64,000 nt of DNA from a virus (lineage: Duplodnaviria > Heunggongvirae > Uroviricota > Caudoviricetes): the IMG/VR virus record IMGVR_UViG_3300033692_000022. One strand, written 5' to 3'. The notes below the pieces were generated by a model. It had not been told where the DNA came from and did not search any database. It was given only the letters and a program-made list of their open reading frames with translations. Both the position numbers and the translations under genes were made by a program. Shown here piece by piece: positions 10,679 to 32,696 of this stretch. Numbering within the stretch: position 1 is the first letter of the stretch; each line of letters opens with the position of its first letter.

Positions 10679-11464
10679 ATGACAGAATCTTTTAAGAAAG
10701 AAATTGAAGACGGAAAATACAGATTAAAGATTGGAAAGCAGGTTCCAGAAGACGATGTTAATATATGTTATCTTGATACCCCTCCTTTAAAATCTACCGA
10801 GAATGTGTATCTTACTGATCTGTCCGAAGGGATAGCAGAAAACAGCTGGGGCGCAAGCAGCAAAGAAAGAACAATGTATTCTGGAGAAGATGGTAAGTTA
10901 TATAATGAATCATTTACAGTAGACAGTGTACCAACTGAAGATGTGCTTGTAACAGATATCTATATGGATCAAGATAACCTTAATGGCCCACTATATTATA
11001 AATACAACCTCTTATATGAACACAGAGACTACACCACAGAGGTTACAGACAATATCAACATACTAAAAGAAGATGGGTCAAAAGTAAGTAAGGAAAGATA
11101 CAAAATTGAATACACCAAAACAGCAGAGGCGACTTACGAGGTCACTCTCTTTTTGTCGTTTAACTCAGATGAAAATAACACATACAGAGTAGAGTACGAC
11201 GCCTTAAATTTCGACAAAATAGTTAAAAGAGACCATACTGAAATACTTAATGCTGAAAAGATATTTAAAGAAACATCTATCAGTGAGGTAAGAGACCATA
11301 GTAATATAGGTAAGAAAATATACGCCAAGAAGGTAGACCAGGAAACAAACGGTTATAATATTTATGTTCCAGTTAAATCTTCAGAGACAGAAGGATCACT
11401 TCACAATAAAGAGATAAATGCTGACCTTCCATTACCATTTAAGTATGAGCAGTTCATTTTGTAA
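10679..11464 (+). CDS. N-terminal segment of a split vWA-domain structural protein (continues in the −1 frame at 11449)
   Basis: 261-aa ORF ending FIL*. The downstream vWA beta-1/MIDAS motif begins in the −1 frame with no start codon (see finding). Confidence 0.5.
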   Translation: MTESFKKEIEDGKYRLKIGKQVPEDDVNICYLDTPPLKSTENVYLTDLSEGIAENSWGASSKERTMYSGEDGKLYNESFTVDSVPTEDVLVTDIYMDQDNLNGPLYYKYNLLYEHRDYTTEVTDNINILKEDGSKVSKERYKIEYTKTAEATYEVTLFLSFNSDENNTYRVEYDALNFDKIVKRDHTEILNAEKIFKETSISEVRDHSNIGKKIYAKKVDQETNGYNIYVPVKSSETEGSLHNKEINADLPLPFKYEQFIL

Positions 11465-13810: not shown

Positions 13811-13818
13811 GTGCTTAC

Positions 13819-14241: not shown

Positions 14242-14253
14242 GGAGTTGGTAAT

Positions 14254-15459: not shown

Positions 15460-15472
15460 TACTAAATAAATA

Positions 15473-15492
15473 GGCGGGGGCTTCCCCGCCTT
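15473..15492 (+). terminator. Rho-independent-like terminator hairpin (GGCGGGG-gctt-CCCCGCC)
   Basis: A 7–8 bp all-GC stem directly after the stop of the FN3-repeat gene, followed by a short TT. Confidence 0.5.
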
Positions 15493-15515
15493 AAGATACA
15501 TAAAGGAGTGATAAA

Positions 15516-16055: not shown

Positions 16056-16069
16056 GAGAGGTGAAATAA

Positions 16070-16615: not shown

Positions 16616-16638
16616 TATATTAAGGAAGGAGTGAAGGA

Positions 16639-17529
16639 ATGCCTCGGATACAAAAACTTATAGATGGTACATTTAAAAAAGTTGACAATAAAAGAGAAAG
16701 AGAACTACATGAAAAAATCGACCAGGAGATATTAGAAAGAATATCTGAAGATGATCGGATAGAGGATAAATTCACTAAAATAACAAATGATTTAGAGATA
16801 GATATAGATAATGTAGAAGAAGCACTTAACCAATTTATAATTGAACAAAATAATATAAATGATGAACTTAAAGATGAAATAGATACAGAAAGAAGTCAAA
16901 GACTTGAGGCAGATGACACACTCCAGTCCAATATAGATTCTGAAGAGAATGCTCGTAAATCAGAAGATCAAGCAATAAGGAATGCGATACAGAACGAAGC
17001 AGAAGAAAGAGCCTACGAAGACCAAAAACTTCATAATAAAATAGATGATGAGATATATGACAGAGAACAGGCAGATATAGAACTCAATGAAGTTATCAAC
17101 ACTGAAAGGTCCGAAAGAATAGAAGCTATAAACGATCTCGATTCCAGGCTAAGGCAGGAGATTGTTGATAGAGAAGACGCTGATAATTCTTTAGAGAAAA
17201 AAATAGAGCGCGAGACAAACGAAAGAAAACTTGATGTTAGAATCCTTAATCATAGAACAGATGAAGATACCATTCTTACAAATATGATAATGGATCTTGA
17301 CAGTGAGCTCCAATCTGAGACTAATGCAAGAGAAGCAGAAGACCAAGCACTGCATGCTAAGATAAACCAAGAAATAGCCGATAGAGAAAGTGATGTCTCA
17401 ACTCTTACAACAAATCTCGACAATGAAATACAAACTAGAGTGTCTGAAGTTAATAGACTTGATCAGAGAATAGATGATCATACTGATTCCAACAACTCAG
17501 ATCCGACAATAATCTACAGACTCAAATAG
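16639..17529 (+). CDS. Tail fiber coiled-coil repeat protein, N-terminal part of a split gene
   Basis: Acidic heptad-like repeats (LQSNIDSEENARKSEDQAIRNAIQNEAEERAYEDQ...). The same repeat continues in the −1 frame from 17487. Confidence 0.5.
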   Translation: MPRIQKLIDGTFKKVDNKRERELHEKIDQEILERISEDDRIEDKFTKITNDLEIDIDNVEEALNQFIIEQNNINDELKDEIDTERSQRLEADDTLQSNIDSEENARKSEDQAIRNAIQNEAEERAYEDQKLHNKIDDEIYDREQADIELNEVINTERSERIEAINDLDSRLRQEIVDREDADNSLEKKIERETNERKLDVRILNHRTDEDTILTNMIMDLDSELQSETNAREAEDQALHAKINQEIADRESDVSTLTTNLDNEIQTRVSEVNRLDQRIDDHTDSNNSDPTIIYRLK

Positions 17530-19064
17530 ATGAACTTGATACTATGCTATCGGATGAAGAAACTACAAGGTTTAATGCCGATAAGGCCTTGAGGGATGAC
17601 CTTGACGCTGAAGAGGCAGCAAGAATAGCCGGGGACAACAACCTACAGAACACAATAGACCAGTCAATAGATAATCTTCTGGCCAGAGAATTCTACGGGG
17701 TCGCAGAAGAGACACTCGGAACAGTAACTACTACAACATATGACTTAAATACATCTCAGGAAATAGTACAGGATGTAAGATATTTTGTAGTAATGAATAA
17801 TGACGGCACAGAGGTTATTGGAGATAGCGGCAGTCCAGTTAGTGTTGTAGACATATCTAATAAAACTATCACTTTTAGTGAAACTCCTAATCAAGATGTT
17901 GTTGTTCAGTTCGCAATCAAAAAAACATTAGGCACACTGCCTGCGGACGCACTAATAACTTATGATACCGTAGGTACTAAATTAGATGCAGATATTACCG
18001 AAGTTATAGGGGCCGCGTATTATGATGGGCGAAAGAATGTAGCAGATAACTTCTCACTGGATGTAAGAATAGAAAACGAGATAGAAGATAGAACCAACGC
18101 TGATAATTCTCTCCAAAGCAATATAGACTCTGAAGAGGCGGCAAGAATAGCAGCTGATAATACACTGCAGGATAATATAGATGCAGAAGAGGCGGCTAGG
18201 ATAGCAGCAGATAACGCCTTAGAGCAGACTATTGAAGACGAGGTACAAACAGCAATCACTCAGCTTCAGGCAGATATAGCGGCGGAAGAACAGGCCAGAA
18301 TAGATGCCGATAATGAACTGCGTAACACTATAGAAAATGAAGTCCAAACTGCAATAACACAAATGGAAGAAGACCTTGCGGCGGAAACAGCAGCCAGACA
18401 GCAGCAGATAGCAGACCTACAGGAACAAATAGATAATGATATACAGATAGCCATTGACCAGATGCAGTCAGATCTACAGGCCGAAAAGACAGCCAGACAA
18501 AATGCCGACGACGCATTACAGGCTCAAATAGATACACTTAATACTGAAGTAGCTTCTAAGTTTGATGACCTATATGATGACTTCTATGCTCACCACCACG
18601 ATTCTCAGTACGTAAATCAAGACGGAGACGAAATGACAGGAGACTTAAGTTTCTCTGCCGGTAAAGGAATAGAGTGGTATGAGAATACTGATGGGGCTGA
18701 AATCAAGTTTAACAGTGATAGCGATAGCGCCCAACAGTCTAATCTTGAGTTTAGAGTAAGAGACAACATGGATGAAGGCTTTAAGTTTATAGCATATAAC
18801 GATGGTGTAGACGTAGACGGCATAGAGCTAATGTATATGAATAAAGATAACTTTGATTATCGCGGCCATGAAATCTGGCATGCAGGAAACGATAGCCACA
18901 ACTCAGGTTTAAATGCAGATATGGTCGACGGAGAACACAAAACAGAAGTTAAAGATAATGCTAGAAAACAAACAAATGAATTGAGATTAGAGACTAGAAC
19001 TTCTGATCCAGCAAATGCTGAGGTGGGTAGAATATGGTTAAGAACAGACTTAGTACCAGAGTAA
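17487..19064 (+). CDS. Tail fiber coiled-coil repeat protein, C-terminal part, ending in a DGDEMTGDL-type fiber tip domain. The frame is open from 17487 and the track ATG is at 17544.
   Basis: Repeats DNSLQSNIDSEEAARIAADNTLQDNIDAEEAARIAADNALEQ are followed by HHHDSQYVNQDGDEMTGDLSF, a motif recurrent in phage fiber distal domains. Confidence 0.5.
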   Translation, partial: FQQLRSDNNLQTQIDELDTMLSDEETTRFNADKALRDDLDAEEAARIAGDNNLQNTIDQSIDNLLAREFYGVAEETLGTVTTTTYDLNTSQEIVQDVRYFVVMNNDGTEVIGDSGSPVSVVDISNKTITFSETPNQDVVVQFAIKKTLGTLPADALITYDTVGTKLDADITEVIGAAYYDGRKNVADNFSLDVRIENEIEDRTNADNSLQSNIDSEEAARIAADNTLQDNIDAEEAARIAADNALEQTIEDEVQTAITQLQADIAAEEQARIDADNELRNTIENEVQTAITQMEEDLAAETAARQQQIADLQEQIDNDIQIAIDQMQSDLQAEKTARQNADDALQAQIDTLNTEVASKFDDLYDDFYAHHHDSQYVNQDGDEMTGDLSFSAGKGIEWYENTDGAEIKFNSDSDSAQQSNLEFRVRDNMDEGFKFIAYNDGVDVDGIELMYMNKDNFDYRGHEIWHAGNDSHNSGLNADMVDGEHKTEVKDNARKQTNELRLETRTSDPANAEVGRIWLRTDLVPE

Positions 19065-19080
19065 TGGAGGTGAATTATAG

Positions 19081-22000
19081 ATGGCAGGACAAAAGTTAGT
19101 ATATGATTACTATAGAGAAAGAAGAGGTAGCTGGTACTGGCTTAGCTCAAATCTAAGAGAATGGCTAAATAGCGACCAGGAAAATGTAGGATATACTAAT
19201 GAACCTCCAAATAGTAGCAACCTAGGTTCTGATAGTTATGCGGATGAAGCCGGATTTTTAACTAACTTTACAACAGCAGAAAAAAATGCTATAGCAGTAA
19301 CAAGACACAGAGGGTATACCAGAGGTGTTGATAGTTCCGTAAAGGATGGTGGGAGTACTGATTTAAACTTTTCTTCGTCTTTTGATACTCCATTTGCTAA
19401 CTATTATTGCTCGGGTGTTGAAGATAATTGGGGCTCTTTTAATTATAAAATTTCAGATGATAAAGTATTTTTATTTTCTCCAGTAGAAATTCACCATTAC
19501 TCACAAAGTAGAAATTTCAACATAAAAAAAGCGCCTTCCCAGTATATAAGAAATAAATATAATATATCTTCAAATTATATAAAGTATACCGTTCAGAATG
19601 GGGAGCACTACGACAGACTTTGCGCAATTAGCGATGAAGGAACATTCTCTTCTACTAACTCTGACTCTACAACAGGAATAGCACCTGCTATACATCTCAA
19701 ACCCGATTATACGTTGGATAGTGGGAAAAAAGTATCAAATTTAAAAGTTGGAGAAGAAGTCGTATTTGGTAATTATGGTGGACACCAAATATCGTGGATA
19801 GTAGTTAATAAAACTCCAGATGACTTTGCATTGCTCTGGTCAAAAGAAGTAATAACTTTAAAAGCATACGATTCTCCTAATGATGACTTCTCCTGGGAGT
19901 ATTCAGACCATATAAATTTCAGCAACTATGATGTAAATATAATTAACGACCTTCAAAAATGGTATCCAACAAATGATAAAACTTTACCGAGACTTTATCT
20001 TCTCAATGAAGACGATCTAAATTCAAGACAAGACGGCGGATGGACCTTAAAATTACAGGCAGAAGATACAGGGTCCGGCATAGAAAAGATAGTATTACCT
20101 GATGGTACCGAAGTTTATGATAACTACGCTGAATATTATATTACTGAAAATAAAAGATATTTCATGCACACTGTAGACAATGCTGGGAATAGAAATAATC
20201 TAACTATTCCAGTAAGTAATATAAACCCACCTTCTTCTGTGGACATCAACTCATCATCTGATGGATGGACTAATTCAGACGTAAATGTAGAGATAAAAGC
20301 ATCTAATGACGTAAATGATTATTATGCAAATGAAATAATAACAAATAGTAGAGACTGGTATGGTCCAGCTTGGCCGAATTCTATATCTTACACTGGAAAA
20401 ACCTTCAGAGTGACAGGTAATATAGAATTAATAGATCACAGCGCAGATTTAGGTAATGTAAGAGCAAATGTGGGTTTTAGATATATAAGAAGATATAATA
20501 AAAACGATGGGTACGACATATCGAATAGTTGGCCCACAATAGAACATTTTTATCTTAGGGATATTAACGGAACACAGGCTAGTTTTGATTTTGAATACAC
20601 AGTACCTGGGGATTATTATAAAGATATAAGGCCATTTTTACAGATTGGAGTAGCACATCATAATCATAATTATACAGTAAAATACACTAATGTTAAATAC
20701 GAATTACTTGATAAAAGTGACTTTGGTATAGATTACATCAAACTACCAAATGGTCAGAAAATATATCAAGACACTTATACAACCACAATCACAGAAGAGG
20801 GAACGTATACTTTTGAGGTTATGGATAATAGAGGCGTAGTTACATCAAGAACTATAGAGGTGCTGATAGAAACTAACCCTCCAGATCTAAATATAAGTCA
20901 GGAAGTAACCAAGAAAACCAATCAAAGTTATGACCTCATTGTAAATGCTTCAGATTCCGAAAGCGGAGTTAAAAGAATACTGCAGCCCAACGGCGAATGG
21001 GTTGAATCTGATTCTTTAAGGTATAATATTTATCAAAATGGAACCTATGAGTTTACAGCAGAAGATAATGCTGGTAATAGAAAAACTAAATCAATAACAG
21101 TATCAAATATAGACAAGACTAGCCCAGTAGACCCCAATATCCATGTAGTTGATAAAGGAGAAAATCACGTAACACTTAATTGGATAGCAGATGATACAGA
21201 GTCAGATATAGATTCAATCAGGTTATATTTCCAAGAATCAGACAGTGATGGTAATCATCTGAAAGATATAGATATCAACGGAGATGGAAACACAGAATAC
21301 GACGTTGATGTTACTGGCCAGGAATCATATACGATTAATGGATTAAATGATTACACATACTACAGATATTATTTAAGAGTGATAGATTCAGTAGACAATG
21401 TAAGAAATGACGGCTATCATACCGTAAGAACTCAAGACACTACGGGGCCAATAGTAGATATAACATCGCACAACGATAATACTAATATCGGATATATCGA
21501 CGGCAATCAACTCACTTTAAGCGGAACAGCAGATGACAATGGAGAGGTTGATAGAGTAATCTTAAACGCTTCGGGCGCAGTCACACTTAATGACTTAGTT
21601 ATAGACGACAGCTCACCAGAAAACTGGAGTTATACAAGATCATATCCCGAAGGTCATACAAGACTAGAAGTTAAAGCAATAGACAAAGCCGGCAACGAAT
21701 CGGATGCCAAGTATATAGAATTTGATGTAGATACTGAAGCTCCTCAGATTGTATGGAATAATCACACAGATAAGAGCTGGCGCAACACTGTACCTGATGT
21801 CCACACTAATAATATAGATATAAACTCTGGTATTAGCACCTCAAAACTAGCAGTAACCTCAAATACAACTAAACCTTCCGACTGGATTAATGACTCCTCA
21901 CCTAGTAACACATACTTCCAAAACACATTAGAAGGAAAACCAGATGGTGAATGGTACTGTCATGTTGAAGTAACAGACAACAACGGCAACAGTACTTATA

Positions 22001-22830
22001 GTTACCAGGGACCATTTAAGATAGACAGAAGTGAGCCTACACATGTGTCACATTCCATATCTGGAGCAGATTATGTAAGAGATAATAATTACTATGTTAA
22101 ACCTAATAGGGAATTTTATATAGAAGTAGAGGGAGAAGAAAACACACTCCTTTCTCATAACTACCTAAATCTAAATGGTGACAACGTTGATATAAGAGCA
22201 TATCAGGTACTATCAGACGAATCATTTAATGAGTACAGAACAGGAAACTATGCTGAGATAATATCGGCTGAGAAGGTAAATTCAACAACTACAAAATTTA
22301 AAGTAAGAATAAAAGATAATGCACCTAACGGATTTATTTTCAATGTAAACGGATGGCACAAAAACGAGGCCGGCACATTAAGCAGATTCACTACTGATAT
22401 AGATATAATAGTAGATGCTAATCCTGCTCAAATGAATGGGTGGGAGATAAAGAACGCACCCTATTTCGATGGCAACACTTATTGGGGTAAACAGGGTGAT
22501 CAGATGACTTTTAACCTCAAGGGCTATGACGACGTAAGCGGGGCAAAAAGAGGTTACATTCAATTAGTTAACAAAGAGACCGGCGACGCCGAACACGCCT
22601 CATACAATAGGGATGAGGGCTATCTCAGCGATTCTAGGGAAGAGCCTAATGTAGATGTAACAACTGGTAGACTAATAAGCAGCGATGATAAAAATATGGA
22701 GATAGAGTTTGATTTTACTCTAGGTAATCAGCCGACAAATTATGACTTATGCTGGTACTGGTACGATAATGTTAAGAACACAATGGATTATACAGATACC
22801 GGCAAAGATATAGGAATAGAAATATCATAG
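19081..22830 (+). CDS. Giant Ig-like/FN3-rich tail fiber (1249 aa), truncated by a frame break
   Basis: It carries three copies of an approximately 90-aa Ig-like module (DSGSGIEKIVLPDGTEV...VDNAGNR; DSESGVKRILQPNGEWV...AEDNAGNRKTKSITV) and an FN3 module with a DINGDG loop. Confidence 0.5.
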   Translation: MAGQKLVYDYYRERRGSWYWLSSNLREWLNSDQENVGYTNEPPNSSNLGSDSYADEAGFLTNFTTAEKNAIAVTRHRGYTRGVDSSVKDGGSTDLNFSSSFDTPFANYYCSGVEDNWGSFNYKISDDKVFLFSPVEIHHYSQSRNFNIKKAPSQYIRNKYNISSNYIKYTVQNGEHYDRLCAISDEGTFSSTNSDSTTGIAPAIHLKPDYTLDSGKKVSNLKVGEEVVFGNYGGHQISWIVVNKTPDDFALLWSKEVITLKAYDSPNDDFSWEYSDHINFSNYDVNIINDLQKWYPTNDKTLPRLYLLNEDDLNSRQDGGWTLKLQAEDTGSGIEKIVLPDGTEVYDNYAEYYITENKRYFMHTVDNAGNRNNLTIPVSNINPPSSVDINSSSDGWTNSDVNVEIKASNDVNDYYANEIITNSRDWYGPAWPNSISYTGKTFRVTGNIELIDHSADLGNVRANVGFRYIRRYNKNDGYDISNSWPTIEHFYLRDINGTQASFDFEYTVPGDYYKDIRPFLQIGVAHHNHNYTVKYTNVKYELLDKSDFGIDYIKLPNGQKIYQDTYTTTITEEGTYTFEVMDNRGVVTSRTIEVLIETNPPDLNISQEVTKKTNQSYDLIVNASDSESGVKRILQPNGEWVESDSLRYNIYQNGTYEFTAEDNAGNRKTKSITVSNIDKTSPVDPNIHVVDKGENHVTLNWIADDTESDIDSIRLYFQESDSDGNHLKDIDINGDGNTEYDVDVTGQESYTINGLNDYTYYRYYLRVIDSVDNVRNDGYHTVRTQDTTGPIVDITSHNDNTNIGYIDGNQLTLSGTADDNGEVDRVILNASGAVTLNDLVIDDSSPENWSYTRSYPEGHTRLEVKAIDKAGNESDAKYIEFDVDTEAPQIVWNNHTDKSWRNTVPDVHTNNIDINSGISTSKLAVTSNTTKPSDWINDSSPSNTYFQNTLEGKPDGEWYCHVEVTDNNGNSTYSYQGPFKIDRSEPTHVSHSISGADYVRDNNYYVKPNREFYIEVEGEENTLLSHNYLNLNGDNVDIRAYQVLSDESFNEYRTGNYAEIISAEKVNSTTTKFKVRIKDNAPNGFIFNVNGWHKNEAGTLSRFTTDIDIIVDANPAQMNGWEIKNAPYFDGNTYWGKQGDQMTFNLKGYDDVSGAKRGYIQLVNKETGDAEHASYNRDEGYLSDSREEPNVDVTTGRLISSDDKNMEIEFDFTLGNQPTNYDLCWYWYDNVKNTMDYTDTGKDIGIEIS

Positions 22831-23369
22831 AGATAGATATTAATGTCGAGGACAGTCAGTCAGGAGTAAAAAGTGTCGAATACAAATTCGACCACAGCAC
22901 TCATTACTCTGGAGACAACTTAAGAACTACTGGTACTCAGGATACCCTCTTTATAGAAGCCCACGGTGAATGGTATCTTCATATAAGAGCAGAGGACAAT
23001 GCCGGGAATGTTGTAAGACAGACATTCGGTCCTTATGTTAATTACTCGGACCCTAAAAGATATATGAAGATCCAGACACCCGGCGGCGAACAGGAAATAC
23101 CACTATATGAACTCAATCAAAGAGTAGACAACAGGCTGAGAATAAAAGCAGCAGATGAAGTGGTATGTATAGGATTAGTCCCACCAGATGATAAGAGGGC
23201 AACAGAAATAAGAGTTAAGATGCCTGAAGCAATATATGCAGTAGAAGGGAACAGAAATGTATTCAGATTCTCAGAGATCGATCCTAACTTAAGTAATGAC
23301 TTTACTCTTGGGGAAGATGAAATAACAATAGATACTCAAAGAGGATTCGACGGTGGAGAATTAGTATAA
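22776..23369 (+). CDS. C-terminal continuation of the 19081 fiber in the −1 frame. It includes a fourth Ig-like module, and there is no start codon before 23064.
   Basis: The frame is open from 22776. It encodes DINVEDSQSGVKSVEYKF...HGEWYLHIRAEDNAGNVVRQTF, the same module as in the upstream ORF, with 290 nt lacking ATG/GTG/TTG. Confidence 0.5.
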   Translation, partial: EHNGLYRYRQRYRNRNIIEIDINVEDSQSGVKSVEYKFDHSTHYSGDNLRTTGTQDTLFIEAHGEWYLHIRAEDNAGNVVRQTFGPYVNYSDPKRYMKIQTPGGEQEIPLYELNQRVDNRLRIKAADEVVCIGLVPPDDKRATEIRVKMPEAIYAVEGNRNVFRFSEIDPNLSNDFTLGEDEITIDTQRGFDGGELV

Positions 23370-23804: not shown

Positions 23805-25667
23805 TTGGGATATATAACACCAGATAAATCACCGGGTATATACATGGACCCGATTACTGTCAACTTTAGTGTTGATAGCAGGGTAGTAAATATAGCAGAA
23901 ACTCAGGATGGCAGCAACCCAACAATAGCAAAATATATAGCATATGATAATCTAAACCCACCTAATCCATTCATAGCGACCGTACAGGACGGCAGGGGTA
24001 ATGTTCTGTTCGATGGTGGATTTCCAAAATACTACAATATGAGAGTAAATTCTTCCTGGACTTCATTTTCTCAACTTAATGATACATTTAAGTATTTTCA
24101 TAATGCTTTAGATTGGATAGCAAACGATGATAAGGTATCAGAAGGTAATCGTAAGATGTTATTTCTTGGTGATTCAAACCCTGGAGAATCTTACAACATC
24201 AAACAAACAGGCGGCAGTGATTTTAAAACATCTATAGAAACAATGTGTACTACTGGTAACTGGGACCCTACCTATCTGACAAGAGAAGATTTCAGCGGCG
24301 GCCAAATCGATTTAAGTTATGCTGATTTAGAGCCTTATGTTGGCGTATTCCTGATGTCGAGTAGGCATACATCTAATAGATATATAACTCAATCAACTGT
24401 AGATAATCTATTGGCTTTTAGAGAAGCCGGTAACGGTATGTTTATCATAACAGACCATGGTTCTAGTGCAGACAACGGTTTTTATAGAACTGCTAATTTC
24501 ATAGCTGAAGAACTTGGGGCTCAATTTTTAGGATATTATAATAGATCACCTGTTAATGTTGGTTTCTTAATAGATAACTACGGTAATCATCCTTTATGGT
24601 CTGGTATGGATAGGAGTGGATATGTCCACGCTGGAAGTTCGGAGTCTGAAATAATTGTAGATGAAACACCAACTACTACAACAGCAGACTCTCTTACTGT
24701 AAGTGAACAGGGTTTTAAGACAGCAAGATTCTTAATAGAGCTCGATACAGGAGAAAAGGTATTTGAAACATATTCCTACGGATTGAATGCTGGAGACCCT
24801 ATTACTTTCAATAACGATATTCAAAATGGAGAGCTTAAAATAGGATTCGGCAGAACTATAGATTTAGATTTCGATATAAATTTAGGAATAATGGACAGCG
24901 CTTCAGGGCTAGTAAGAAGGAACAGCGATGTAATAGCTCAGTGGTCAAAAGACAGCGGCGGAATGACAACAGAATGGTTTACCGAAAGTGGTAACAGTAC
25001 CATTAAGGTAGATGATGGGGACTCAATAAAGGTAGCCTTACAGTCTCCAGTCTATTATGCAGAGTCTTTTACTATTAATGCAGCACCTCGAACTTCGACA
25101 GCCATCGACATAAACCTCGAAGATAAGACAAGTAAATACATTTCACTAAGCTGGACCTATGATAGCAGGATAGAACTAGACCATCTCGAGCTTATCTTTT
25201 TAAAAAGCGACGGATCACAGATAGATATAGATGATGACGGTACATTAGAAGATAGGTTAAACCTCAATAAAAGCCTATCATTTAGTGCAAGTAATCTTGA
25301 GCCGGCAACAGAATATAAGTTCAAACTAAGAGTATATGATGTTAACGGCGGCAGTTTAGACAGCAGCTATTATACAGCTAAAACAAACGGAGTACTTAAG
25401 ATACTTGTCGATAATACCTACAAGATACCACGCAACGCTCTAGTAAAAAAAGGAACAGGCTGGTCGAATTTTACAACTCAAATAAAGAATAACGGAGAGT
25501 TTGAGGAAATCGACATAGGGCCTACGATACAAACTTCCATGTTTACTACTGACATGTGGACAGAGTTTTCAAAAGAGGTGCGGGCAATCCACCTGTTAGA
25601 TAATGACTCTGATCTATATGGCAGCAGCCTTGATATTATAGATGTAATAGACTCCTATGGAATATAG
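23805..25667 (+). CDS. Tail protein paralog A, part 1: N-terminal hydrolase-like domain (GDS / TDHG motifs), FN3 module, beta-rich region
   Basis: TTG start after ribosome-binding site AAGGAGGCAG. It is approximately 75% identical over its N-terminal 260 aa to the 27431 ORF. It contains LFLGDSNPGES and FIITDHGSSADNGF. Confidence 0.45.
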   Translation: MGYITPDKSPGIYMDPITVNFSVDSRVVNIAETQDGSNPTIAKYIAYDNLNPPNPFIATVQDGRGNVLFDGGFPKYYNMRVNSSWTSFSQLNDTFKYFHNALDWIANDDKVSEGNRKMLFLGDSNPGESYNIKQTGGSDFKTSIETMCTTGNWDPTYLTREDFSGGQIDLSYADLEPYVGVFLMSSRHTSNRYITQSTVDNLLAFREAGNGMFIITDHGSSADNGFYRTANFIAEELGAQFLGYYNRSPVNVGFLIDNYGNHPLWSGMDRSGYVHAGSSESEIIVDETPTTTTADSLTVSEQGFKTARFLIELDTGEKVFETYSYGLNAGDPITFNNDIQNGELKIGFGRTIDLDFDINLGIMDSASGLVRRNSDVIAQWSKDSGGMTTEWFTESGNSTIKVDDGDSIKVALQSPVYYAESFTINAAPRTSTAIDINLEDKTSKYISLSWTYDSRIELDHLELIFLKSDGSQIDIDDDGTLEDRLNLNKSLSFSASNLEPATEYKFKLRVYDVNGGSLDSSYYTAKTNGVLKILVDNTYKIPRNALVKKGTGWSNFTTQIKNNGEFEEIDIGPTIQTSMFTTDMWTEFSKEVRAIHLLDNDSDLYGSSLDIIDVIDSYGI

Positions 25668-26824
25668 GACACTGCAGACTTAATATAACAGAACCACCAC
25701 CTCTTGTAGCAAACGATGACTCATTTGAGATATACGAGGGTGGATATATAAATATTTATAAATCTCAGATGTTAGACAATGATTACGATGAAAGCGGGAA
25801 CGAACCAATCGAAATCATAGGTTTCTCTGGTGTTACTGGAGGAACACTAACCGAGTACGACAACTACATTAGATTCGATGTAACAAGTCAGGTAGGAGAA
25901 CCTGCAGAGTTTAAATATACAATAACTAACGCAGTAGGCATAGAAACTACAGCCTATGTAAAGTTAATTATTAAAAAGGGACTTATTGCAGGAATAGATA
26001 ATACTGATTCATATAAAGATATCGAAAAGACCATTCCTATTTCAACCCTCGACATAACAGACATTTCAGAAAACCCACCAATTAAGTTAATAGGTGTTAC
26101 AGATCCAAGCGGCGGAACAGTAACCTTTGACGATTATAACATCTATCTTACCTCAACAGCTGCGGCTGGCAGTAATATTTCATTCAATTATACAGTGCGA
26201 AATGATATTAATCTTACAGATACAGGAACTGTTAATGTGAAAGTTATGCCTACTCCTCAGATACAAACAGCTGATGATACATTCGAAGTTACCCAGGGTA
26301 ATCAGATATTGATTTCTAAATCTGGACTCACCAATAATGATACAGATGAAGGAGGATATTACCCACTAACAGTAACCAATGTATACAACGTAACAGGTGG
26401 AACACTTGATGTAAGCGGAGATACTATTACATTTACTTCTACAAGTCTTGCGGGAGAAGCCGCAGGTTTTAAGTATGATGTAGAAAACACTCAGGGCGTA
26501 ACTCAGACAGGAAATGTATATATCACTGTTAATCCACTTCCAGCCGTAGACTCCTTAATTTTTAGCGACGCACAAACAACCCAGGATAAGCTAAACGAAT
26601 ATACTCCTGATAGTATGCAGGACGTATTTACAAGCTGGTATAGATTCTCTCATCAAGGCGGGAATATACAGGTCAACCCTCTTACTATGTATGACGGCAC
26701 TACTCAATACGATTTATATAGCGAAAATATATGGAAGTACCACGCCGATGAAGATAGAATAGCCTGTCAGCAGAATACTCCTCAGCATGTTGGCTTTCTT
26801 CGCCGGGTGGAGATGATGACATGA
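25634..26824 (+). CDS. Tail protein paralog A, part 2, continuing part 1 in the −1 frame. The track ATG is at 25769.
   Basis: The frame is open from 25634 and encodes NIGHCRLNITEPPPLVANDDSFEIYEGG. This aligns to YIGHCEIKTSQTPNLVAMDDSFEVYEGG of the 28206 ORF, with no start codon upstream of 25769. Cadherin-like or Ig-like repeats follow. Confidence 0.45.
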   Translation, partial: YYRCNRLLWNIGHCRLNITEPPPLVANDDSFEIYEGGYINIYKSQMLDNDYDESGNEPIEIIGFSGVTGGTLTEYDNYIRFDVTSQVGEPAEFKYTITNAVGIETTAYVKLIIKKGLIAGIDNTDSYKDIEKTIPISTLDITDISENPPIKLIGVTDPSGGTVTFDDYNIYLTSTAAAGSNISFNYTVRNDINLTDTGTVNVKVMPTPQIQTADDTFEVTQGNQILISKSGLTNNDTDEGGYYPLTVTNVYNVTGGTLDVSGDTITFTSTSLAGEAAGFKYDVENTQGVTQTGNVYITVNPLPAVDSLIFSDAQTTQDKLNEYTPDSMQDVFTSWYRFSHQGGNIQVNPLTMYDGTTQYDLYSENIWKYHADEDRIACQQNTPQHVGFLRRVEMMT

Positions 26825-27411
26825 TCGGTATAGTTTTAGCCTATACTGAAACTTCTAATCCTTATGATGAACATACACTCATAGCTCAAAGAACTCACGG
26901 GGGGATAGGCGGAGGCGAATGGGCTATAATTTATAATAAATCAAAATCTGGGGATAGTGTGATAATAAACGATAGCATATCTGGTGATGATATAAGTGGG
27001 GGTTGGAGTGGAGATCGCACAAGAGTAAGAGCTGAGAGAGAAGGAAATATCATAAAAGTATATGCTTCTCCAATGAATTCAACTACTCTTGATCCAAATT
27101 CAATGTTCGAAATAGATTTAAGCTCAGATAGTAGACTCCACAAATTTATGGACGGAGGATCATACGGGTATTGTTGTTTATCACAGGACAGATCAACATT
27201 TACCGATATACAGTTCGAAGGTGGATTAGACAAATCCATAATCTTAGATATTGAAAATAATATAGTCTGGGAATATAGCTTCGAACAAAGCCAATGGATA
27301 GATACAGGAAGAACTATTCAGGACGAAATAGGATATGTAAGAGAGGTATATAATCCAAACACTGGTGATAGATACCTTGTTAAAGAAAACGAAATAATCA
27401 AAATGACTTAA
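26758..27411 (+). CDS. Tail protein paralog A, part 3, continuing part 2 in the −1 frame. The track ATG is at 26821.
   Basis: Upstream in the same frame, SPGGDDDMIGIVLAYTE aligns with SSNGDNDVIGLVIAFDRD of the 28206 ORF. The C-terminal YVREVYNPNTGDRYLVKENEIIKMT is nearly identical to the paralog B C-terminus. Confidence 0.45.
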   Translation, partial: NSLSAEYSSACWLSSPGGDDDMIGIVLAYTETSNPYDEHTLIAQRTHGGIGGGEWAIIYNKSKSGDSVIINDSISGDDISGGWSGDRTRVRAEREGNIIKVYASPMNSTTLDPNSMFEIDLSSDSRLHKFMDGGSYGYCCLSQDRSTFTDIQFEGGLDKSIILDIENNIVWEYSFEQSQWIDTGRTIQDEIGYVREVYNPNTGDRYLVKENEIIKMT

Positions 27412-27430: not shown

Positions 27431-28228
27431 ATGGGATACGTAATACCAGATAAACAACCTGGAATATATAAAGAACCATTTACTGTAGATTTTAATGTAG
27501 ATAGTAGTGTATCAAATGTAGTAGACACTCAAGATGGAAGCAATCCGACCATAGCAAAGTATATAGCATATGACAATTTAAACCCGCCAAATCCATTTAT
27601 AGCAACAGTTCAAGATGGTAAGGGTAATGTATTATTCGATGGTGGCTTCCCTAAGTACTATAATCACAAATGTGATACATCTTGGAGTTCGTTTTCCGAC
27701 CTTAATAACACCTTTAAGTATTTTTATAATGCTTTGAATTGGATAGCAAATGAAGAAAAAGTAGCTGAAGGGAATCGCAAAATACTTTTTATAGGAGATG
27801 CTATTCCAGGCGAGCCTTACAATATAAAAGAAACTGGCGGTAGTGATTTTAAAACATCAATAGAAACAATATGTAGAGTTGGGAATTGGAACCCTACTTA
27901 TAAGATAAGGACTGATTTTCCTAATAATCAAATAGATTTAAGCTATACAGACTTAGAACCTTATGTAGCGGTATTTCTAATGTCAAGTAGACACACTAGC
28001 ACTAAACATATCACAGATAGTACAGTAAATAACATGCTTGCCTTTAGAGAAGCAGGCAACGGTATATTCATGATTACCGATCATGGATCAAGTGCAGATA
28101 ATGGTTTTTATAAAACTGCTAATTACATTGCAGAAGAACTTGGTGCACACTTCATTGGTGATTATGATAGAACTCCAGTTAACGTAGGCTACCTTATCGA
28201 TAATTATGGCAACCATCCATTGTGGTGA
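27431..28228 (+). CDS. Tail protein paralog B, part 1 (hydrolase-like N-terminal domain)
   Basis: Ribosome-binding site AAGGAGGGGAATTTTATG. It matches paralog A residues 1–265 closely (IAKYIAYDNLNPPNPFIATVQDG identical). It ends at NYGNHPLW*, where paralog A continues. Confidence 0.45.
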   Translation: MGYVIPDKQPGIYKEPFTVDFNVDSSVSNVVDTQDGSNPTIAKYIAYDNLNPPNPFIATVQDGKGNVLFDGGFPKYYNHKCDTSWSSFSDLNNTFKYFYNALNWIANEEKVAEGNRKILFIGDAIPGEPYNIKETGGSDFKTSIETICRVGNWNPTYKIRTDFPNNQIDLSYTDLEPYVAVFLMSSRHTSTKHITDSTVNNMLAFREAGNGIFMITDHGSSADNGFYKTANYIAEELGAHFIGDYDRTPVNVGYLIDNYGNHPLW

Positions 28229-31200
28229 GACTCCTATATCTACCAGCACAGACCCTCTGGTAGTTGATCAGTCAGGCTATAAAACAGCAAGGTTTTTGAT
28301 AGAGCTAGACAATGGAGAAACTAAATTCGAAAGTTATTCTTATGGGTTAAATACTGAAGAGCCGATTGTATTTAATCACAGCCTAATAGATAATAAATTG
28401 GATTTAGGACTTAAGCGAGATTTCAATTTAGATTTCAGTATAGTACTAGGAGTGATGGACAGCGCCAACGGGTTTATTAAAAGAAATAACGAAGTAGTTG
28501 GCCAGTGGTCGAAAGACCAGACTTCTTTTGATAAGACCTGGTTTACCGATAGCGGCACCAACAATATTAAAGTAGAACTAGGAGATTTAATAGAAATAAC
28601 ATTAGAAGATCCTTTGTATTACAGTAAATCAATGACAATAGATGGTAAAGAGCCTATCTTAAATACGTCTCCGCAATCTAGTGGTAACTATGTGGCTCTT
28701 GAATGGGATGTTAGTGATGGCTCACAGGATTTCACATATATGCTTCACAAAAAGAAGTCCTCAGATAGTGTATTCCAAACTATACCAGCTAAAGAAAACC
28801 TTAAGATACTTAATGTATATCCAGAAAATGGGGTAAGTGAAACAATAACCTTCACAAACTGGAAAGGAGAAACTACGACAACCTTAAAATCTGCCTCCCT
28901 AAAGAAATGGATGGAAGAACCAAATAACACACATTCAAAAGGATGGGGTAAAGGCCTTATAGATGTCGATATAGTTTCATTACTGGACTTTAATAATTCA
29001 CCAGACAGTTATCTTAAGACTAATGGCAGTTATGACTATGATGTTGTAGTATTTGGAACCTGGGATTGTAATGGAGATTGCTCAAGCGGTGGAGATACTA
29101 GCGCAGCTGCGGCAGCAAGCATAGAAACTTTCATCAAGACGGGCAGGGGTGTTCTACTCGGTCATGATACATTACACAAAAACCATCCTAATTTCAATAG
29201 TCTTGTTAGTTATTTTAATGTTACTTTAGATACAACGGGTATAGGATATACAGAACTTGAAATAACTAAAAAAGGATTACTCACCAACTATCCCTGGTAT
29301 ATAGGAGATATCGGAGATAAACTATCTATTCCCATGGCACATGTAACCAATCAGATGGCGCATGGAGATGTATGGTTTAAATTTACCGATGACACCTGGG
29401 GTGGTTATGACTATGTTGCTAATGACCTAACAAGAAATTTTTATCTTACTACATGGAATAATACTGCCTTAATTCAGACCGGTCACAGTGATGCTCAGGC
29501 GACTTCTGATGAACAGAAACTACTTGCTAACACACTATTTTATCTAGGTCAGGTTACAACCGCAACTAGCTGGAATGATATGTCCGGGCAGGATCTCGCC
29601 GGGCCAGAAAAACCAGTCATAAATAACGTAAAAATAAACCAAGACACTAAGAAAATAGAAATAGATTACAGTTCTCCAAATGATAATGGAACCACATATG
29701 ACTACTACGTTACTGCAAAAGGTAGTGAAGGATTAACAACCCAAACCAACACTTCTACTTGTACTATAAAAACAAATATTGCCGGTTATTCAATATTGGT
29801 AGATGACAGTCCAAGTAGTGTGCCCAATAACGATATAAACACTACAGAAACTTCATATGATTTGGAACATGAAAAATATGATAATTTCTATGTCCATATT
29901 GCAGCAGTAGATAATGCAGGAAACATATCAAAAACCTCACACTATCATTATACAGACAATACCGCTCCTGATTTAGATTTAACACAAAAAATATCAGAGT
30001 GGACACCTACAGAAGAAACTATAGTTGCTGAAGCTACTGATATAGGGTCTGGGGTTAGCAGAATACAACTCCCTAACGGTGAGTGGGTTAATCAATCAAA
30101 AGTAGAATTTAAAGCCACATCAAATGGTGATTATACTTTCACTGCAGAAGATTATACCGGCAACAGAACAACAAAGACTATTACCGTATACGGAGTTGGA
30201 CCAGAAAGTAATCCATTAATAAATTTAAAAATAACAGAAGTTACAAGTAGTACCATAGACCTTAGATGGGAAATATCAGAAACCATAGATGTAGACTATA
30301 TAAATTTAATGTTCCTCAAAAAAGACGGAGAAGAGTTTAAAAATATAGATATTAATGGTGACGGCTCTATAGATGATTATCTAAATATAAACGATGCAAC
30401 TTCATACAGTGTTAATAAACTCGAGCCCAGAACAGAATATTACTTTAAAATAATAGTCTATGACAATGACCAAACTCAGATGAGCAGTGCTTTATTGTCG
30501 GCAAAAACAAAAGGGCTAATAAAGGTAAATAAGAATGGCAGTTTCAAAATAGCAAAAGATGTACTCGTTAAAAAGAATAATGACTGGGAGTCCTTTAGCG
30601 GTAAAATAAAGAAGGACGGTAAACAGGTTAAGGTAGATATAGGTACTACAATTAAAACAAATCTATACGAAGAAGATGTCTGGCCGGGCTTCGAAAAAGA
30701 AATAAGGGCCATTCACTTATTAGAAGATGATAGTGATATATATGGAGATACTGATCTTAATATTGTCGATATCAAAAACGTATACGGAGGGGATGCCGAA
30801 TTCGTAGGAAGCGATTCTCTGGTAGAAACATCAGTAAACTTTAGAAATAATGCTGAGATAGGAGAAACTGCTGGTTTTACTTATGTAGTAGAAAACTCCA
30901 GAGGTAGAAGATATATCGGGCATTGTGAAATAAAGACATCTCAAACTCCAAACTTAGTAGCAATGGATGACTCGTTTGAAGTTTATGAAGGCGGATTTGT
31001 TGATATATATAAGTCGCAAATACTAGCCAATGATTATGATACAGAAAATAATACTCCAATAGAAATAGTAGATGTATTCGATGCAAAAGGTGGGACTCCT
31101 ACTGTATATGATAATTATATTAGATTCCAGGTGAATGATGAAATTGGAGATCCTGCTCAATTTAGATATACAATCAGAAACTCAATAGGTCAAGAAACAA

Positions 31201-32696
31201 CTGCATACGTAAAATTACTAATCAAAAGAGGATTAAAAGCTGAAGATCAAACTCTAACTGGTTATAAAGGAAAGGAAAAATTAATTCCTCTATCGCAGTT
31301 AAATATTACAGACCTATCAGAGTCGCCTCCATTCGAAATCACAGAGATTAAAGATACAGCAAATGGCAGCTTGATAAGTTATAACAAAGATGAAATAAGA
31401 TTTGTACCAACTGGAGAGATCGGCGAGGAAGCTAGTTTCGTATATCAAGTCAAAAATCAAACAGAATTAATTGATGAAGCCAAAATTACTCTAACCATAG
31501 AAGAGCCACCACAGATAACCTGTAATGACGATTTATTTGAAGTCACTCAAGGAAAAGAACTTATAATATCAAAATCAAATTTAAGCGATAATGATACAGA
31601 CTCGAAGGGGTTATACCCTTTAAGTGTAACTTCAGTTAAAGAACCTATTGGATGTAGTTTGAGCACTGATGGAGATACCATAATAGTAACACCAATAGTA
31701 AATGCAATGGAAGAATGTGGGTTCAAATATGAAGTAGAAAATACCGAAGGGATAAAAGGTAGTGGTAATGTGTTTATTAATGTTAAGCCATTACCAGAAA
31801 TAGAAGCTCTAATTTACGAGAATCAAAACGAAATAGATAATGAAATCGAGAATATCGTACCTCCTACAATGAAAAATATATTTAATCAGTGGGATAGATT
31901 CGATGGGGATAATTTATACACAGCAGGCTCTAGTTATGATGGCAACGCCTCATCCTGGCAATTTAGTGAAAACCCGGACAGAGTGATACAACCCGTAAAT
32001 GTGGCGCCCTATAATGGGTTTTTAAGCAACAAAGAAGTAGACTTTTATAGTCACGAAGCAACGCTAACTTCTAGCAATGGGGATAATGATGTTATTGGTC
32101 TTGTTATAGCTTTTGATAGAGATAACAATAAAAATCATACGTTAAGTGTAATAATATCAAAAGGTGATCCTATACCTAAAAGCGGTTACGGTATTGTATA
32201 TGACTATGATTATACTCATGGTGGAAGAATTCATGATAGAGATTGGATTGTTGAAGAAAAAAATGTTATATCTACCGCTGCTGGGTGGAGTGGTAACAAA
32301 ATCAGAGTAAGAGTAGATAGAGATAAAGATATAATAAAGGTATATTGCTCTGGTTGGAATAATTTGTCAAGCTATAAGATAGAGTCAGAGATAGTTATAG
32401 ATTTAAATAGTGATCCAAGACTAGAACGGTTTAAAGGAAAAAAGAAATATGGCTACGGGAACTACTCTCAAGCCAATACCACATATTTAGATATAGATTT
32501 CAAAGGTGGTATTAACTACACTAAGATGTATAACTTCGAAACAGAAACTGTATATAAATATAATATAGATAGCAATTCTTGGGAGGCGACGAATACTACT
32601 ATCCAGGATGAATTAGGGTATGTAAGAGAAGTGGTTAACCCGAAAACAGGAGAAAGATATCTTATCAAAGAAAACGAAATAATTAAAATGACATAG
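28206..32696 (+). CDS. Tail protein paralog B, part 2 (1496 aa): beta-rich region, a ThuA/GATase1-like domain, Ig-like and FN3 modules, cadherin-like repeats and a C-terminal lectin-like domain
   Basis: Contains YDVVVFGTWDC...GRGVLLGHDTLH (GATase1/ThuA-like), EATDIGSGVSRIQLPNGEWV...AEDYTGNRTTKTITV (Ig-like module) and an FN3 module with DINGDGSIDD. The C-terminus matches the 26821 ORF. Confidence 0.5.
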   Translation: MATIHCGETPISTSTDPLVVDQSGYKTARFLIELDNGETKFESYSYGLNTEEPIVFNHSLIDNKLDLGLKRDFNLDFSIVLGVMDSANGFIKRNNEVVGQWSKDQTSFDKTWFTDSGTNNIKVELGDLIEITLEDPLYYSKSMTIDGKEPILNTSPQSSGNYVALEWDVSDGSQDFTYMLHKKKSSDSVFQTIPAKENLKILNVYPENGVSETITFTNWKGETTTTLKSASLKKWMEEPNNTHSKGWGKGLIDVDIVSLLDFNNSPDSYLKTNGSYDYDVVVFGTWDCNGDCSSGGDTSAAAAASIETFIKTGRGVLLGHDTLHKNHPNFNSLVSYFNVTLDTTGIGYTELEITKKGLLTNYPWYIGDIGDKLSIPMAHVTNQMAHGDVWFKFTDDTWGGYDYVANDLTRNFYLTTWNNTALIQTGHSDAQATSDEQKLLANTLFYLGQVTTATSWNDMSGQDLAGPEKPVINNVKINQDTKKIEIDYSSPNDNGTTYDYYVTAKGSEGLTTQTNTSTCTIKTNIAGYSILVDDSPSSVPNNDINTTETSYDLEHEKYDNFYVHIAAVDNAGNISKTSHYHYTDNTAPDLDLTQKISEWTPTEETIVAEATDIGSGVSRIQLPNGEWVNQSKVEFKATSNGDYTFTAEDYTGNRTTKTITVYGVGPESNPLINLKITEVTSSTIDLRWEISETIDVDYINLMFLKKDGEEFKNIDINGDGSIDDYLNINDATSYSVNKLEPRTEYYFKIIVYDNDQTQMSSALLSAKTKGLIKVNKNGSFKIAKDVLVKKNNDWESFSGKIKKDGKQVKVDIGTTIKTNLYEEDVWPGFEKEIRAIHLLEDDSDIYGDTDLNIVDIKNVYGGDAEFVGSDSLVETSVNFRNNAEIGETAGFTYVVENSRGRRYIGHCEIKTSQTPNLVAMDDSFEVYEGGFVDIYKSQILANDYDTENNTPIEIVDVFDAKGGTPTVYDNYIRFQVNDEIGDPAQFRYTIRNSIGQETTAYVKLLIKRGLKAEDQTLTGYKGKEKLIPLSQLNITDLSESPPFEITEIKDTANGSLISYNKDEIRFVPTGEIGEEASFVYQVKNQTELIDEAKITLTIEEPPQITCNDDLFEVTQGKELIISKSNLSDNDTDSKGLYPLSVTSVKEPIGCSLSTDGDTIIVTPIVNAMEECGFKYEVENTEGIKGSGNVFINVKPLPEIEALIYENQNEIDNEIENIVPPTMKNIFNQWDRFDGDNLYTAGSSYDGNASSWQFSENPDRVIQPVNVAPYNGFLSNKEVDFYSHEATLTSSNGDNDVIGLVIAFDRDNNKNHTLSVIISKGDPIPKSGYGIVYDYDYTHGGRIHDRDWIVEEKNVISTAAGWSGNKIRVRVDRDKDIIKVYCSGWNNLSSYKIESEIVIDLNSDPRLERFKGKKKYGYGNYSQANTTYLDIDFKGGINYTKMYNFETETVYKYNIDSNSWEATNTTIQDELGYVREVVNPKTGERYLIKENEIIKMT

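What the first reader, a model, noticed from the sequence alone, without database searches (positions are those of the whole stretch)
25630..26825. Tail protein paralog A is in three pieces joined by two −1 breaks (at a GGAATA and at a CTTC run), each supported by alignment to paralog B
**Break 1**
- ORF 23805–25667 ends IDVIDSYGI*.
- The −1 frame, open from 25634, reads NIGHCRLNITEPPPLVANDDSFEIYEGG.
- This aligns with YIGHCEIKTSQTPNLVAMDDSFEVYEGG of the intact 1496-aa paralog.
- No start codon occurs until 25769.
- tatggaata read as tatggaaata gives DSYGNIGHC.

**Break 2**
- ORF 25769–26824 ends HVGFLRRVEMMT*.
- The −1 frame, open from 26758, reads LSSPGGDDDMIGIVLAYTE.
- This aligns to GFLS...SSNGDNDVIGLVIAFDRD of the paralog.
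- ctttcttcg read as ctttctttcg gives GFLSPGGDDDMIG.

**Interpretation**
- Paralog A would be roughly 1170 aa and contiguous.
Basis: seen in the sequence. Interest (0 to 1): 0.7.

Follow-up and report, generated by a model that had tools for sequence, protein, structure and literature searches.

The report
Tail-fibre gene broken by contig-specific deletions
The two "frameshifts" in this phage tail-fibre gene are the scars of a 124-base and a 46-base deletion found only in this one assembled contig, so they are not programmed recoding or single-base errors, and the finding is ordinary.

Summary
Paralog A lies in three frames (23805-25667, 25769-26824, 26821-27411), and all three pieces align colinearly to paralog B.

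The proposed cause, two single-base slips, is wrong. The whole 64-kb window is 100% identical to a 202.6-kb ENA phage contig except for eight blunt deletions of 43-124 nt, all between window 11448 and 28226.
- Break 1 is a 124-nt deletion at 25661|25662.
- Break 2 is a 46-nt deletion at 26793|26794.
- The "intact" paralog B is also broken, by a 62-nt deletion at 28225|28226. Its true length is 1775 aa, not 1496.
- Five more deletions split three upstream fibre-module genes.

Intact A is 1258 aa. Other assemblies (ENA, Logan, JGI) and a 65%-identical ortholog carry the missing segments. Only one 134.5-kb JGI contig, evidently the window's source, lacks them.

No break has a slippery heptamer, a homopolymer or a stimulatory structure. 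Eight blunt deletions with no substitutions in 64 kb, six of them out of frame, look more like a defect of that assembly than evolution. A real defective haplotype is not excluded without reads. Interest is low.

The parts
23805..25661 (+). Paralog A, codons 1-619 of the intact 1258-aa tail-fibre gene (frame 0). The annotated ORF runs on through ATA TAG to 25667.
   Evidence: TTG start with AAAGGAGG 8 nt upstream; 100% identical to L001 6205-8061.
25661..25662 (.). Junction of the 124-nt deletion (break 1). It removes codons 620-660 plus 1 nt, which is the core of the first Big_9/cadherin-like Ig repeat. There is no microhomology.
   Evidence: L001 8062-8185 is absent; the segment is present in L017 and L018; it is present in P0002 and paralog B.
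25664..26793 (+). Paralog A, codons 662-1037 (frame 2). Only 25769-26824 is an ATG-initiated ORF, and that ATG has no Shine-Dalgarno.
   Evidence: tblastn E=3e-93; upstream sequence atatataaatatttataaatctcagATG; 100% identical to L001 8186-9317.
26793..26794 (.). Junction of the 46-nt deletion (break 2). It removes 1 nt plus codons 1039-1053 (FVSTDKYKNYVHEAT). After it the old frame reads 10 wrong codons and stops at TGA 26822-26824.
   Evidence: the segment is present in L017. JGI contig L018 ends exactly at 26793.
26794..27411 (+). Paralog A, codons 1054-1258 plus stop (frame 1), the C-terminal tail-fibre domain. The ATG at 26821 is an internal Met of the intact protein, so the ATGA overlap is accidental.
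   Evidence: phrog_33406 tail fiber protein covers residues 979-1244 of intact A.
27431..28225 (+). Paralog B, codons 1-265 (frame 2, strong Shine-Dalgarno). It is 77% identical to A residues 1-265 and ends HPLW then TGA.
28225..28226 (.). Junction of the 62-nt deletion in paralog B. It acts as a +1-type break, with 1 nt of positional ambiguity, and removes SGMSRSDSISAGGSESEVVV(N).
   Evidence: the segment is present in L017 and in strain variants P0112 and P0113.
28227..32696 (+). Paralog B, codons 287-1775 plus stop (frame 0). The ATG at 28206 that the ORF list uses has no Shine-Dalgarno and is not the real start.
22820..22821 (.). Junction of a 52-nt deletion in the upstream 1464-aa fibre-like gene. 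The window ORF 19081-22830 is truncated to 1249 aa, and 23064-23369 is the detached C-terminus.
   Evidence: the segment is present in L018.
23276..23277 (.). Junction of an in-frame 54-nt deletion in the same 1464-aa gene.
   Evidence: the segment is present in L017, L018 and L019.
17251..17252 (.). Junction of an in-frame 78-nt deletion in the 851-aa tail-fibre-like gene.
17501..17502 (.). Junction of a 52-nt deletion in the 851-aa gene. It splits the gene into 16639-17529 and 17544-19064.
11448..11449 (.). Junction of a 43-nt deletion in the 923-aa VWA-domain gene. It splits the gene into 10679-11464 and 11482-13407.
   Evidence: The segment is present and invariant in L002-L007 (six samples).

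Best explanation
**Shown.** Paralog A is a single 1258-aa tail-fibre / virion structural gene. Its architecture is a conserved N-terminal anchor domain, an fn3 domain, Big_9/cadherin-like Ig repeats and a C-terminal fibre domain. It belongs to a ~200-kb myovirus-like phage.

In this window the gene is cut into three frames by a 124-nt and a 46-nt deletion. These are two of eight short blunt deletions carried only by this one contig, all inside the phage's fibre/host-range module. Nothing joins the pieces at translation: no frameshift signal and no hop. As written, the sequence encodes a 620-aa N-terminal fragment and no credible downstream products.

**Inferred.** The deletions are most likely defects introduced when this contig was assembled, gap-closed or polished in a strain-variable region. 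In that case the phage in the sample has the intact gene.
For: 1. **Identity apart from the deletions.** The window is 100.000% identical to ENA ERZ27245728 k141_29228 over all 64 kb, apart from eight gaps of 43, 78, 52, 52, 54, 124, 46 and 62 nt.
2. **The ENA version is the ancestral one.** With the segments present, all five affected genes are single ORFs of 923, 851, 1464, 1258 and 1775 aa. The missing peptides are conserved in the other paralog and in the 65%-identical ortholog P0002.
3. **Independent assemblies carry the segments.** These are Logan SRR5852467 and SRR34913713, JGI 3300033746, ENA ERZ27245802/808, and Logan SRR7004989, SRR34871449 and SRR34861975. The broken pieces occur on exactly one contig, a 134,508-bp JGI contig.
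4. **The pattern looks artefactual.**
   - There are zero substitutions against eight deletions.
   - Junction microhomology is 0,1,0,0,0,0,0,1 nt, which is chance level.
   - Lengths mod 3 are 1,0,1,1,0,1,1,2, so frame is not preserved.
   - Three of the five genes are hit twice.
   - All deletions lie within 16.8 of 64 kb (range test p about 5e-4, my calculation). That is the region where strains differ most.
5. **No recoding signals.** No break has an X XXY YYZ heptamer or a homopolymer of 4 or more. Downstream folding z-scores are only -0.6 to -1.4. The ATG at 25769 has no Shine-Dalgarno in a genome that otherwise uses AGGAGG.
Against: - A de Bruijn-graph contig can cross a blunt junction only if reads contain that junction. 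If the JGI contig came from such an assembler without gap closing, the deletions exist in DNA molecules of the library.
- JGI contig L018 ends exactly at 26793, the left edge of the 46-nt deletion. I estimate this as about 0.004 by chance. It suggests a real branch in some sample's read graph at that base.
- The deleted patches are not variable in the strains available. The simple "unresolved strain bubble" version of the artefact therefore has no direct support.
- I could not see reads or the assembly method.
Confidence: 0.6

Rival explanations
1. The eight deletions are real. The contig represents a genuine phage haplotype whose fibre-module genes, including A and B, are inactivated or truncated. 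It would be a defective or complemented variant, or one under relaxed selection, for example in a long-term enrichment or in a carrier or prophage state. A is then a pseudogene that makes at most a 620-aa N-terminal fragment.
For: - The pieces are in a deposited public assembly and were gene-called there.
- Graph-based assemblers need junction-spanning reads.
- L018 ends exactly at one deletion edge.
- The deletions sit in the module where phages vary most.
Against: - Zero substitutions in 64 kb against eight deletions is very far from any normal indel-to-substitution ratio.
- There is no microhomology at the junctions.
- Second hits in already-broken genes, and two in-frame deletions, argue against selection for loss of function.
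- Only one contig carries the deletions, while the assemblies covering each site (one to six per site), some 100% identical to the window, are intact there.
- L018 passes through three other deletion sites with the segments present.
Confidence: 0.33
2. The gene has become three (and B two) separately translated, functional subunits. This would be a modular split of a fibre, with A3 translationally coupled through the ATGA overlap at 26821-26824.
For: - There is an ATGA stop/start overlap at 26821-26824, with a GGAG 8 nt upstream.
- Fibre genes are split in some phages and fused in others (general knowledge).
Against: - The deletion removes the core of an Ig-like repeat.
- The A2 ATG at 25769 has no Shine-Dalgarno and drops 35 conserved codons.
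- The ATG at 26821 is an internal Met of the intact protein, and the GGAG encodes the conserved PGGDD.
- No relative has the split arrangement.
- The B start at 28206 also has no Shine-Dalgarno.
Confidence: 0.03
3. This is the first reader's reading: two single-base sequencing errors, at GGAATA and at the CTTC run, in an otherwise contiguous gene of about 1170 aa.
For: Inserting one base at each site does fuse the frames.
Against: - The identical-strain contigs differ at these sites by 124 and 46 nt, not 1 nt.
- No overlap contains a homopolymer of 4 or more.
- No relative has the 1202-aa product that the two one-base repairs give. All are 1245-1266 aa.
Confidence: 0.01
4. Programmed recoding joins the pieces. 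The candidates are -1 frameshifting, a +2 slip of tRNA-Ile on AUA-UAG at 25662-25667, or short hops.
For: - At break 1 the stop follows the junction immediately, and ATATAG would allow AUA to AUA re-pairing, giving SYGIGHC (my reading).
- At B's break the stop TGA is also at the junction.
Against: - There is no canonical slippery heptamer and no stimulatory structure.
- No relative conserves an overlapping two-ORF arrangement. All have one ORF with extra coding sequence at exactly these points.
- A recoded product would lack the core of a folded domain.
Confidence: 0.01

Closest known systems
Local assembly, gap-closure or polishing errors in metagenome contigs (short missing stretches in strain-heterogeneous regions)
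   Same: - The differences are deletions only, with perfect sequence on both sides.
- They are confined to one assembly and clustered in the strain-variable module.
- There is no regard for reading frame.
   Different: - I could not see the assembly method or the reads.
- Graph assemblers do not normally create blunt junctions.
- Another contig ends exactly at one junction.
Ordinary pseudogenisation or splitting of phage tail-fibre genes by out-of-frame deletion
   Same: A conserved fibre gene is interrupted by 3n+1 deletions, while intact alleles exist in sister genomes.
   Different: Eight such events with no substitutions and no microhomology are not what gradual decay looks like.
Programmed -1 ribosomal frameshifting in phage tail genes (lambda G/GT-type tail assembly chaperones, T7 gene 10A/10B)
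   Same: The gene lies in a tail module, and there is a -1 frame relationship between consecutive ORFs.
   Different: - There is no slippery heptamer and no conserved overlap.
- The relatives are single ORFs.
- The downstream frame resumes after a 41- or 15-codon loss rather than at an overlap.
Translational bypassing (T4 gene 60 hop)
   Same: A stop codon sits right at the break, and a possible matching codon (ATA...ATA) lies at break 1.
   Different: - There is no untranslated gap in this sequence. The coding sequence is missing, not skipped.
- There is no conservation in relatives.

Membership tests
Programmed -1 ribosomal frameshift site | Slippery heptamer X XXY YYZ in the zero frame, within the overlap of the two ORFs | tested here: not met
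   no such heptamer in any frame in 25630-25670, 26755-26826 or 28185-28230.
Programmed -1 ribosomal frameshift site | The two-ORF overlapping arrangement is conserved in relatives | tested here: not met
   relatives at 100% and 65% identity have one uninterrupted ORF of 1245-1266 aa.
Programmed -1 ribosomal frameshift site | Stimulatory downstream RNA structure | tested here: not met
   80-nt windows downstream of the breaks fold with z = -0.6 to -1.4 against shuffles.
Single-base (homopolymer) sequencing error | The break lies in a homopolymer run, and a 1-nt correction reproduces the sequence of close relatives | tested here: not met
   no run of 4 or more; the differences from identical-strain contigs are 124 and 46 nt.
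Translational bypass (gene 60-type) | An untranslated gap between matched take-off and landing codons, present in relatives | tested here: not met
   coding resumes 2 nt after the junction. The relatives have coding sequence there, not a gap.
Phage tail-fibre / virion structural protein (phrog_11065 N-terminal domain, Big_9/cadherin-like repeats, phrog_33406 C-terminal domain) | Significant profile matches across the protein, and a location in a baseplate/fibre gene block | tested here: met
   phrog_11065 at 9e-108 and phrog_33406 tail fiber at 1e-36. Big_9 at 5e-16, Cadherin_4/5 and fn3; neighbours are Baseplate_J, Sheath_initiator and Gp10_C.
Gene disrupted by deletion (pseudogene or assembly defect) | An intact orthologous allele exists, and the lesion is a non-3n deletion relative to it | tested here: met
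   124 = 3x41+1 and 46 = 3x15+1. There are zero amino-acid mismatches outside the gaps.
Gene disrupted by deletion (pseudogene or assembly defect) | The deletion is present in the DNA of the sample (reads span the junction) | not testable with these tools
   No read data. Indirect hints conflict: (one contig only) against (a contig end at the junction).

The most novel reading that the evidence does not exclude
The eight blunt 43-124-nt deletions are real and were made by a localized, deletion-only mutational process acting on the fibre/host-range module of a ~200-kb phage. Candidates are repeated nuclease attack, such as CRISPR or another defence system, followed by end-joining, or a phage-borne mechanism. 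The result would be a fibre-defective haplotype that persists beside the intact one.
Probability: 0.08. Interest if true: 0.55.

Novelty: not a real feature. Interest (0 to 1): 0.1.

Why it matters
The main value is as a caution. Frame breaks that align neatly to a paralog can look like programmed frameshifts or one-base errors when they are in fact multi-base deletions private to one assembly. Comparison with identical-strain contigs settles the question at once.

For annotation, the 620/351/196-aa and 265/1496-aa "hypothetical proteins" on the JGI contig should be read as fragments of the 1258-aa and 1775-aa fibre proteins. If reads showed the deletions to be real, the clustered, blunt, substitution-free pattern would deserve a closer look as a mutational signature.

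Tried and rejected
- **Programmed -1 frameshift:** rejected. There is no heptamer or structure, and the relatives are single ORFs.
- **+2 slip on AUAUAG at break 1 and Met-to-Met hop at break 2:** I considered both from the sequence. I dropped them once the intact allele showed 41 and 15 missing codons.
- **Stop-codon reassignment:** rejected. The old frame contains many stops after each break.
- **Apparent frame-1 similarity upstream of break 2** (YSSACWLSS against B YSHEATLTSS), which might have implied double reading: this is chance. The true HEATL lies in the deleted 46 nt.
- **Replication slippage or k-mer collapse between direct repeats:** rejected, because junction microhomology is only 0-1 nt.
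- **Deleted patches as hypervariable strain bubbles:** not supported. Strains L003-L007, L018, P0112 and P0113 are invariant there.
- **Deletions introduced by whoever prepared the window:** rejected. The broken pieces are gene calls on a public 134,508-bp JGI contig.
- **Searches that found nothing:**
  - megablast against phage GenBank
  - IMG/VR peptide scan
  - GTDB genomes, for the junction and for its left flank
  - literature search for the sample accessions
- **JGI metagenome scan:** it gave only two 68-69% relatives, both matched end to end.
Full report
**Observation**

- ORF 23805-25667 is in frame 0. It has a TTG start preceded by AAAGGAGG and ends DSYGI*.
- The -1 frame is open from 25634 and reads NIGHCRLNITEPPPLVANDDSFEIYEGG. 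It has no start codon before the ATG at 25769.
- ORF 25769-26824 ends GFLRRVEMMT*.
- The next -1 frame carries LSSPGGDDDMIGIVLAYTE, and ORF 26821-27411.

A tblastn of the 28206-32696 protein against the region gives three colinear HSPs in frames 0, 2 and 1, with E-values of 5e-45, 3e-93 and 9e-39. The three pieces are therefore parts of one gene. The same alignment shows that B residues 862-903 have no counterpart at break 1, and that about 15 residues have none at break 2.

**The "intact" paralog is also broken**

ORF 27431-28228 (265 aa, strong Shine-Dalgarno) is 77% identical to the first 265 residues of A. It ends HPLW* at TGG TGA. The 1496-aa ORF resumes the homology at ETP in the +1 frame, about 21 residues further on, and its nominal ATG at 28206 has no Shine-Dalgarno. 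That makes three frame breaks in two tandem paralogs, each coinciding with an alignment gap.

**What relatives look like**

A search with the conceptually fused A found three uninterrupted relatives:
- P0001 (1245 aa, JGI) and P0109 (1258 aa, ENA/Logan). Both are identical to window A except for 41 extra residues at break 1 and 15 at break 2.
- P0002 (1266 aa, 65% identity), which also contains both segments.
- P0003 (1775 aa), which equals the two B pieces plus SGMSRSDSISAGGSESEVVVN.

A multiple alignment shows zero mismatches between the window pieces and the intact proteins outside the gaps.

**Nucleotide comparison**

I fetched parts of ENA ERZ27245728 contig k141_29228 (202,621 bp) as loci L001, L002, L008, L012, L016 and L020. 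Together they cover the whole window, at contig positions 133,722-198,232. They are 100% identical to the window except for eight clean gaps in the window:

| Deletion follows window position | Length (nt) |
|---|---|
| 11448 | 43 |
| 17251 | 78 |
| 17501 | 52 |
| 22820 | 52 |
| 23276 | 54 |
| 25661 | 124 |
| 26793 | 46 |
| 28225 | 62 |

- Lengths mod 3 are 1,0,1,1,0,1,1,2.
- Junction microhomology is 0,1,0,0,0,0,0,1 nt.
- With the segments present, five consecutive genes are single ORFs of 923 (VWA), 851, 1464, 1258 (A) and 1775 (B) aa. In the window each of them is split.
- Break 1 of the finding is the 124-nt deletion. It removes codons 620-660 plus one base, which is the core of the first Big_9/cadherin-like repeat.
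- Break 2 is the 46-nt deletion, which removes one base plus codons 1039-1053.
- The ATGA overlap at 26821 is accidental. That ATG is an internal Met of the intact protein.

**How widespread is each allele**

Every other assembly that covers a deletion site carries the segment:

| Assembly | Locus | Deletion sites where the segment is present |
|---|---|---|
| Logan SRR5852467 | L017 | 54, 124, 46 and 62 nt |
| JGI 3300033746 | L018 | 52 (at 22820), 54 and 124 nt |
| Logan SRR34913713 | L019 | 54 nt |
| Five further samples | L003-L007 | 43 nt |

The 78-nt site and the 52-nt site at 17501 are covered only by the ENA k141_29228 contig.

The broken pieces do exist in the public protein collection, but only on one JGI/IMG contig of 134,508 bp. 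That contig is evidently the window's source, so the deletions are in that deposited assembly and were not introduced later. The break-1 junction sequence is absent from the GTDB genome collection.

**Recoding and one-base errors excluded**

None of the three overlaps contains an X XXY YYZ heptamer or a homopolymer of four or more. Downstream 80-nt windows fold no better than shuffles, with z from -0.6 to -1.4. The genome uses strong AGGAGG ribosome-binding sites, but the ATGs at 25769 and 28206 have none. Relatives conserve a single ORF, not an overlap.

**What the gene is**

- Intact A and B match phrog_11065 (virion structural protein, N-terminal ~430-520 aa) and phrog_33406 (tail fiber protein, C-terminal domain). 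Between these they have fn3 and Big_9/cadherin-like repeats.
- Neighbouring genes encode the sheath initiator, baseplate J, Gp10_C-domain proteins and other fibre-like proteins.
- This is the baseplate/fibre module of a large myovirus-like phage of a host that uses Shine-Dalgarno sites.

**Artefact or real variant**

Several features favour a defect of that one assembly.
- There are eight deletions and no substitution in 64 kb.
- The junctions are blunt.
- The reading frame is not preserved.
- Already-broken genes are hit twice.
- Only one contig carries the deletions.
- All eight lie within 16.8 kb (range test p about 5e-4, my calculation). That is the region where co-occurring strains diverge, and such regions are where assemblers, gap closers and polishers make local errors (my knowledge, not tested).

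Other points count against a pure software artefact.
- Graph assemblers need junction reads.
- JGI contig L018 ends exactly at 26793, the left edge of the 46-nt deletion. I estimate about 0.004 by chance, given roughly 28 contig ends inspected. This points to a real branch at that base in at least one sample.
- L018 nevertheless runs through three other deletion sites with the segments present. A linked eight-deletion haplotype in that sample does not fit either.
- The deleted patches are invariant in the known strains.

I put about 0.6 on an assembly defect and about 0.33 on a real defective haplotype. Only reads can decide between them.

**Verdict**

The one-base, contiguous-1170-aa interpretation is wrong in mechanism and in product. 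Nothing here suggests recoding. The finding reduces to a tail-fibre gene, and its paralog and three neighbours, damaged by contig-specific deletions. It is of low interest, apart from the unexplained clustered deletion pattern.

Noticed in passing
window 27431-32696: The paralog used as the intact reference is itself split. ORF 27431-28228 (265 aa) and ORF 28206-32696 (1496 aa) are one 1775-aa gene, interrupted by a 62-nt deletion at 28225|28226.
   Followed up: yes
window 10679-13407, 16639-19064, 19081-23369: Three further large fibre-module genes are split or shortened by five more deletions specific to this contig. In other assemblies they are 923 aa (VWA), 851 aa and 1464 aa. The deletions are 43, 78, 52, 52 and 54 nt.
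   Followed up: yes
L018 (JGI 3300033746 Ga0373123_459), end of contig = window 26793: An independent JGI contig stops at exactly the base before the 46-nt deleted segment. It contains the 52-, 54- and 124-nt segments, and it differs from the window by two SNPs at 25995 and 25999.
   Followed up: partly
window ~12300-17000 (contig 146-151 kb): Strain-level SNPs among six other samples are concentrated here, at up to 70 per kb, against about 0.1% upstream. This marks the fibre module as the strain-variable part of the genome.
   Followed up: partly
whole window vs Logan SRR5852467, SRR34913713 and ENA ERZ27245728: The same phage strain is 100% identical across assemblies from different sequencing runs. 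This suggests a stable, perhaps laboratory-maintained or recurrent, community. The environment could not be identified.
   Followed up: partly
window 52845-53762 (- strand): A tyrosine recombinase/integrase gene is the only sizeable minus-strand gene in the window. It sits between a PriCT_1 primase-like gene and a DnaB-like helicase in a ~200-kb phage.
   Followed up: no
window 59383-60144 and 61747-62472: There are two PD-(D/E)XK nuclease genes, the second with a weak Cas4 match. They flank a RuvC-like resolvase (60338-50) and a sigma-70 region-4 protein (60879-61670).
   Followed up: no
L020 16439-19006 (contig 200,053-202,620, beyond the window's right end): A NUMOD4/HNH_3 homing-endonuclease gene sits right after a 303-aa ATP-cone/RNR-alpha fragment. 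The ribonucleotide reductase gene may be interrupted by an intron or a homing element.
   Followed up: no
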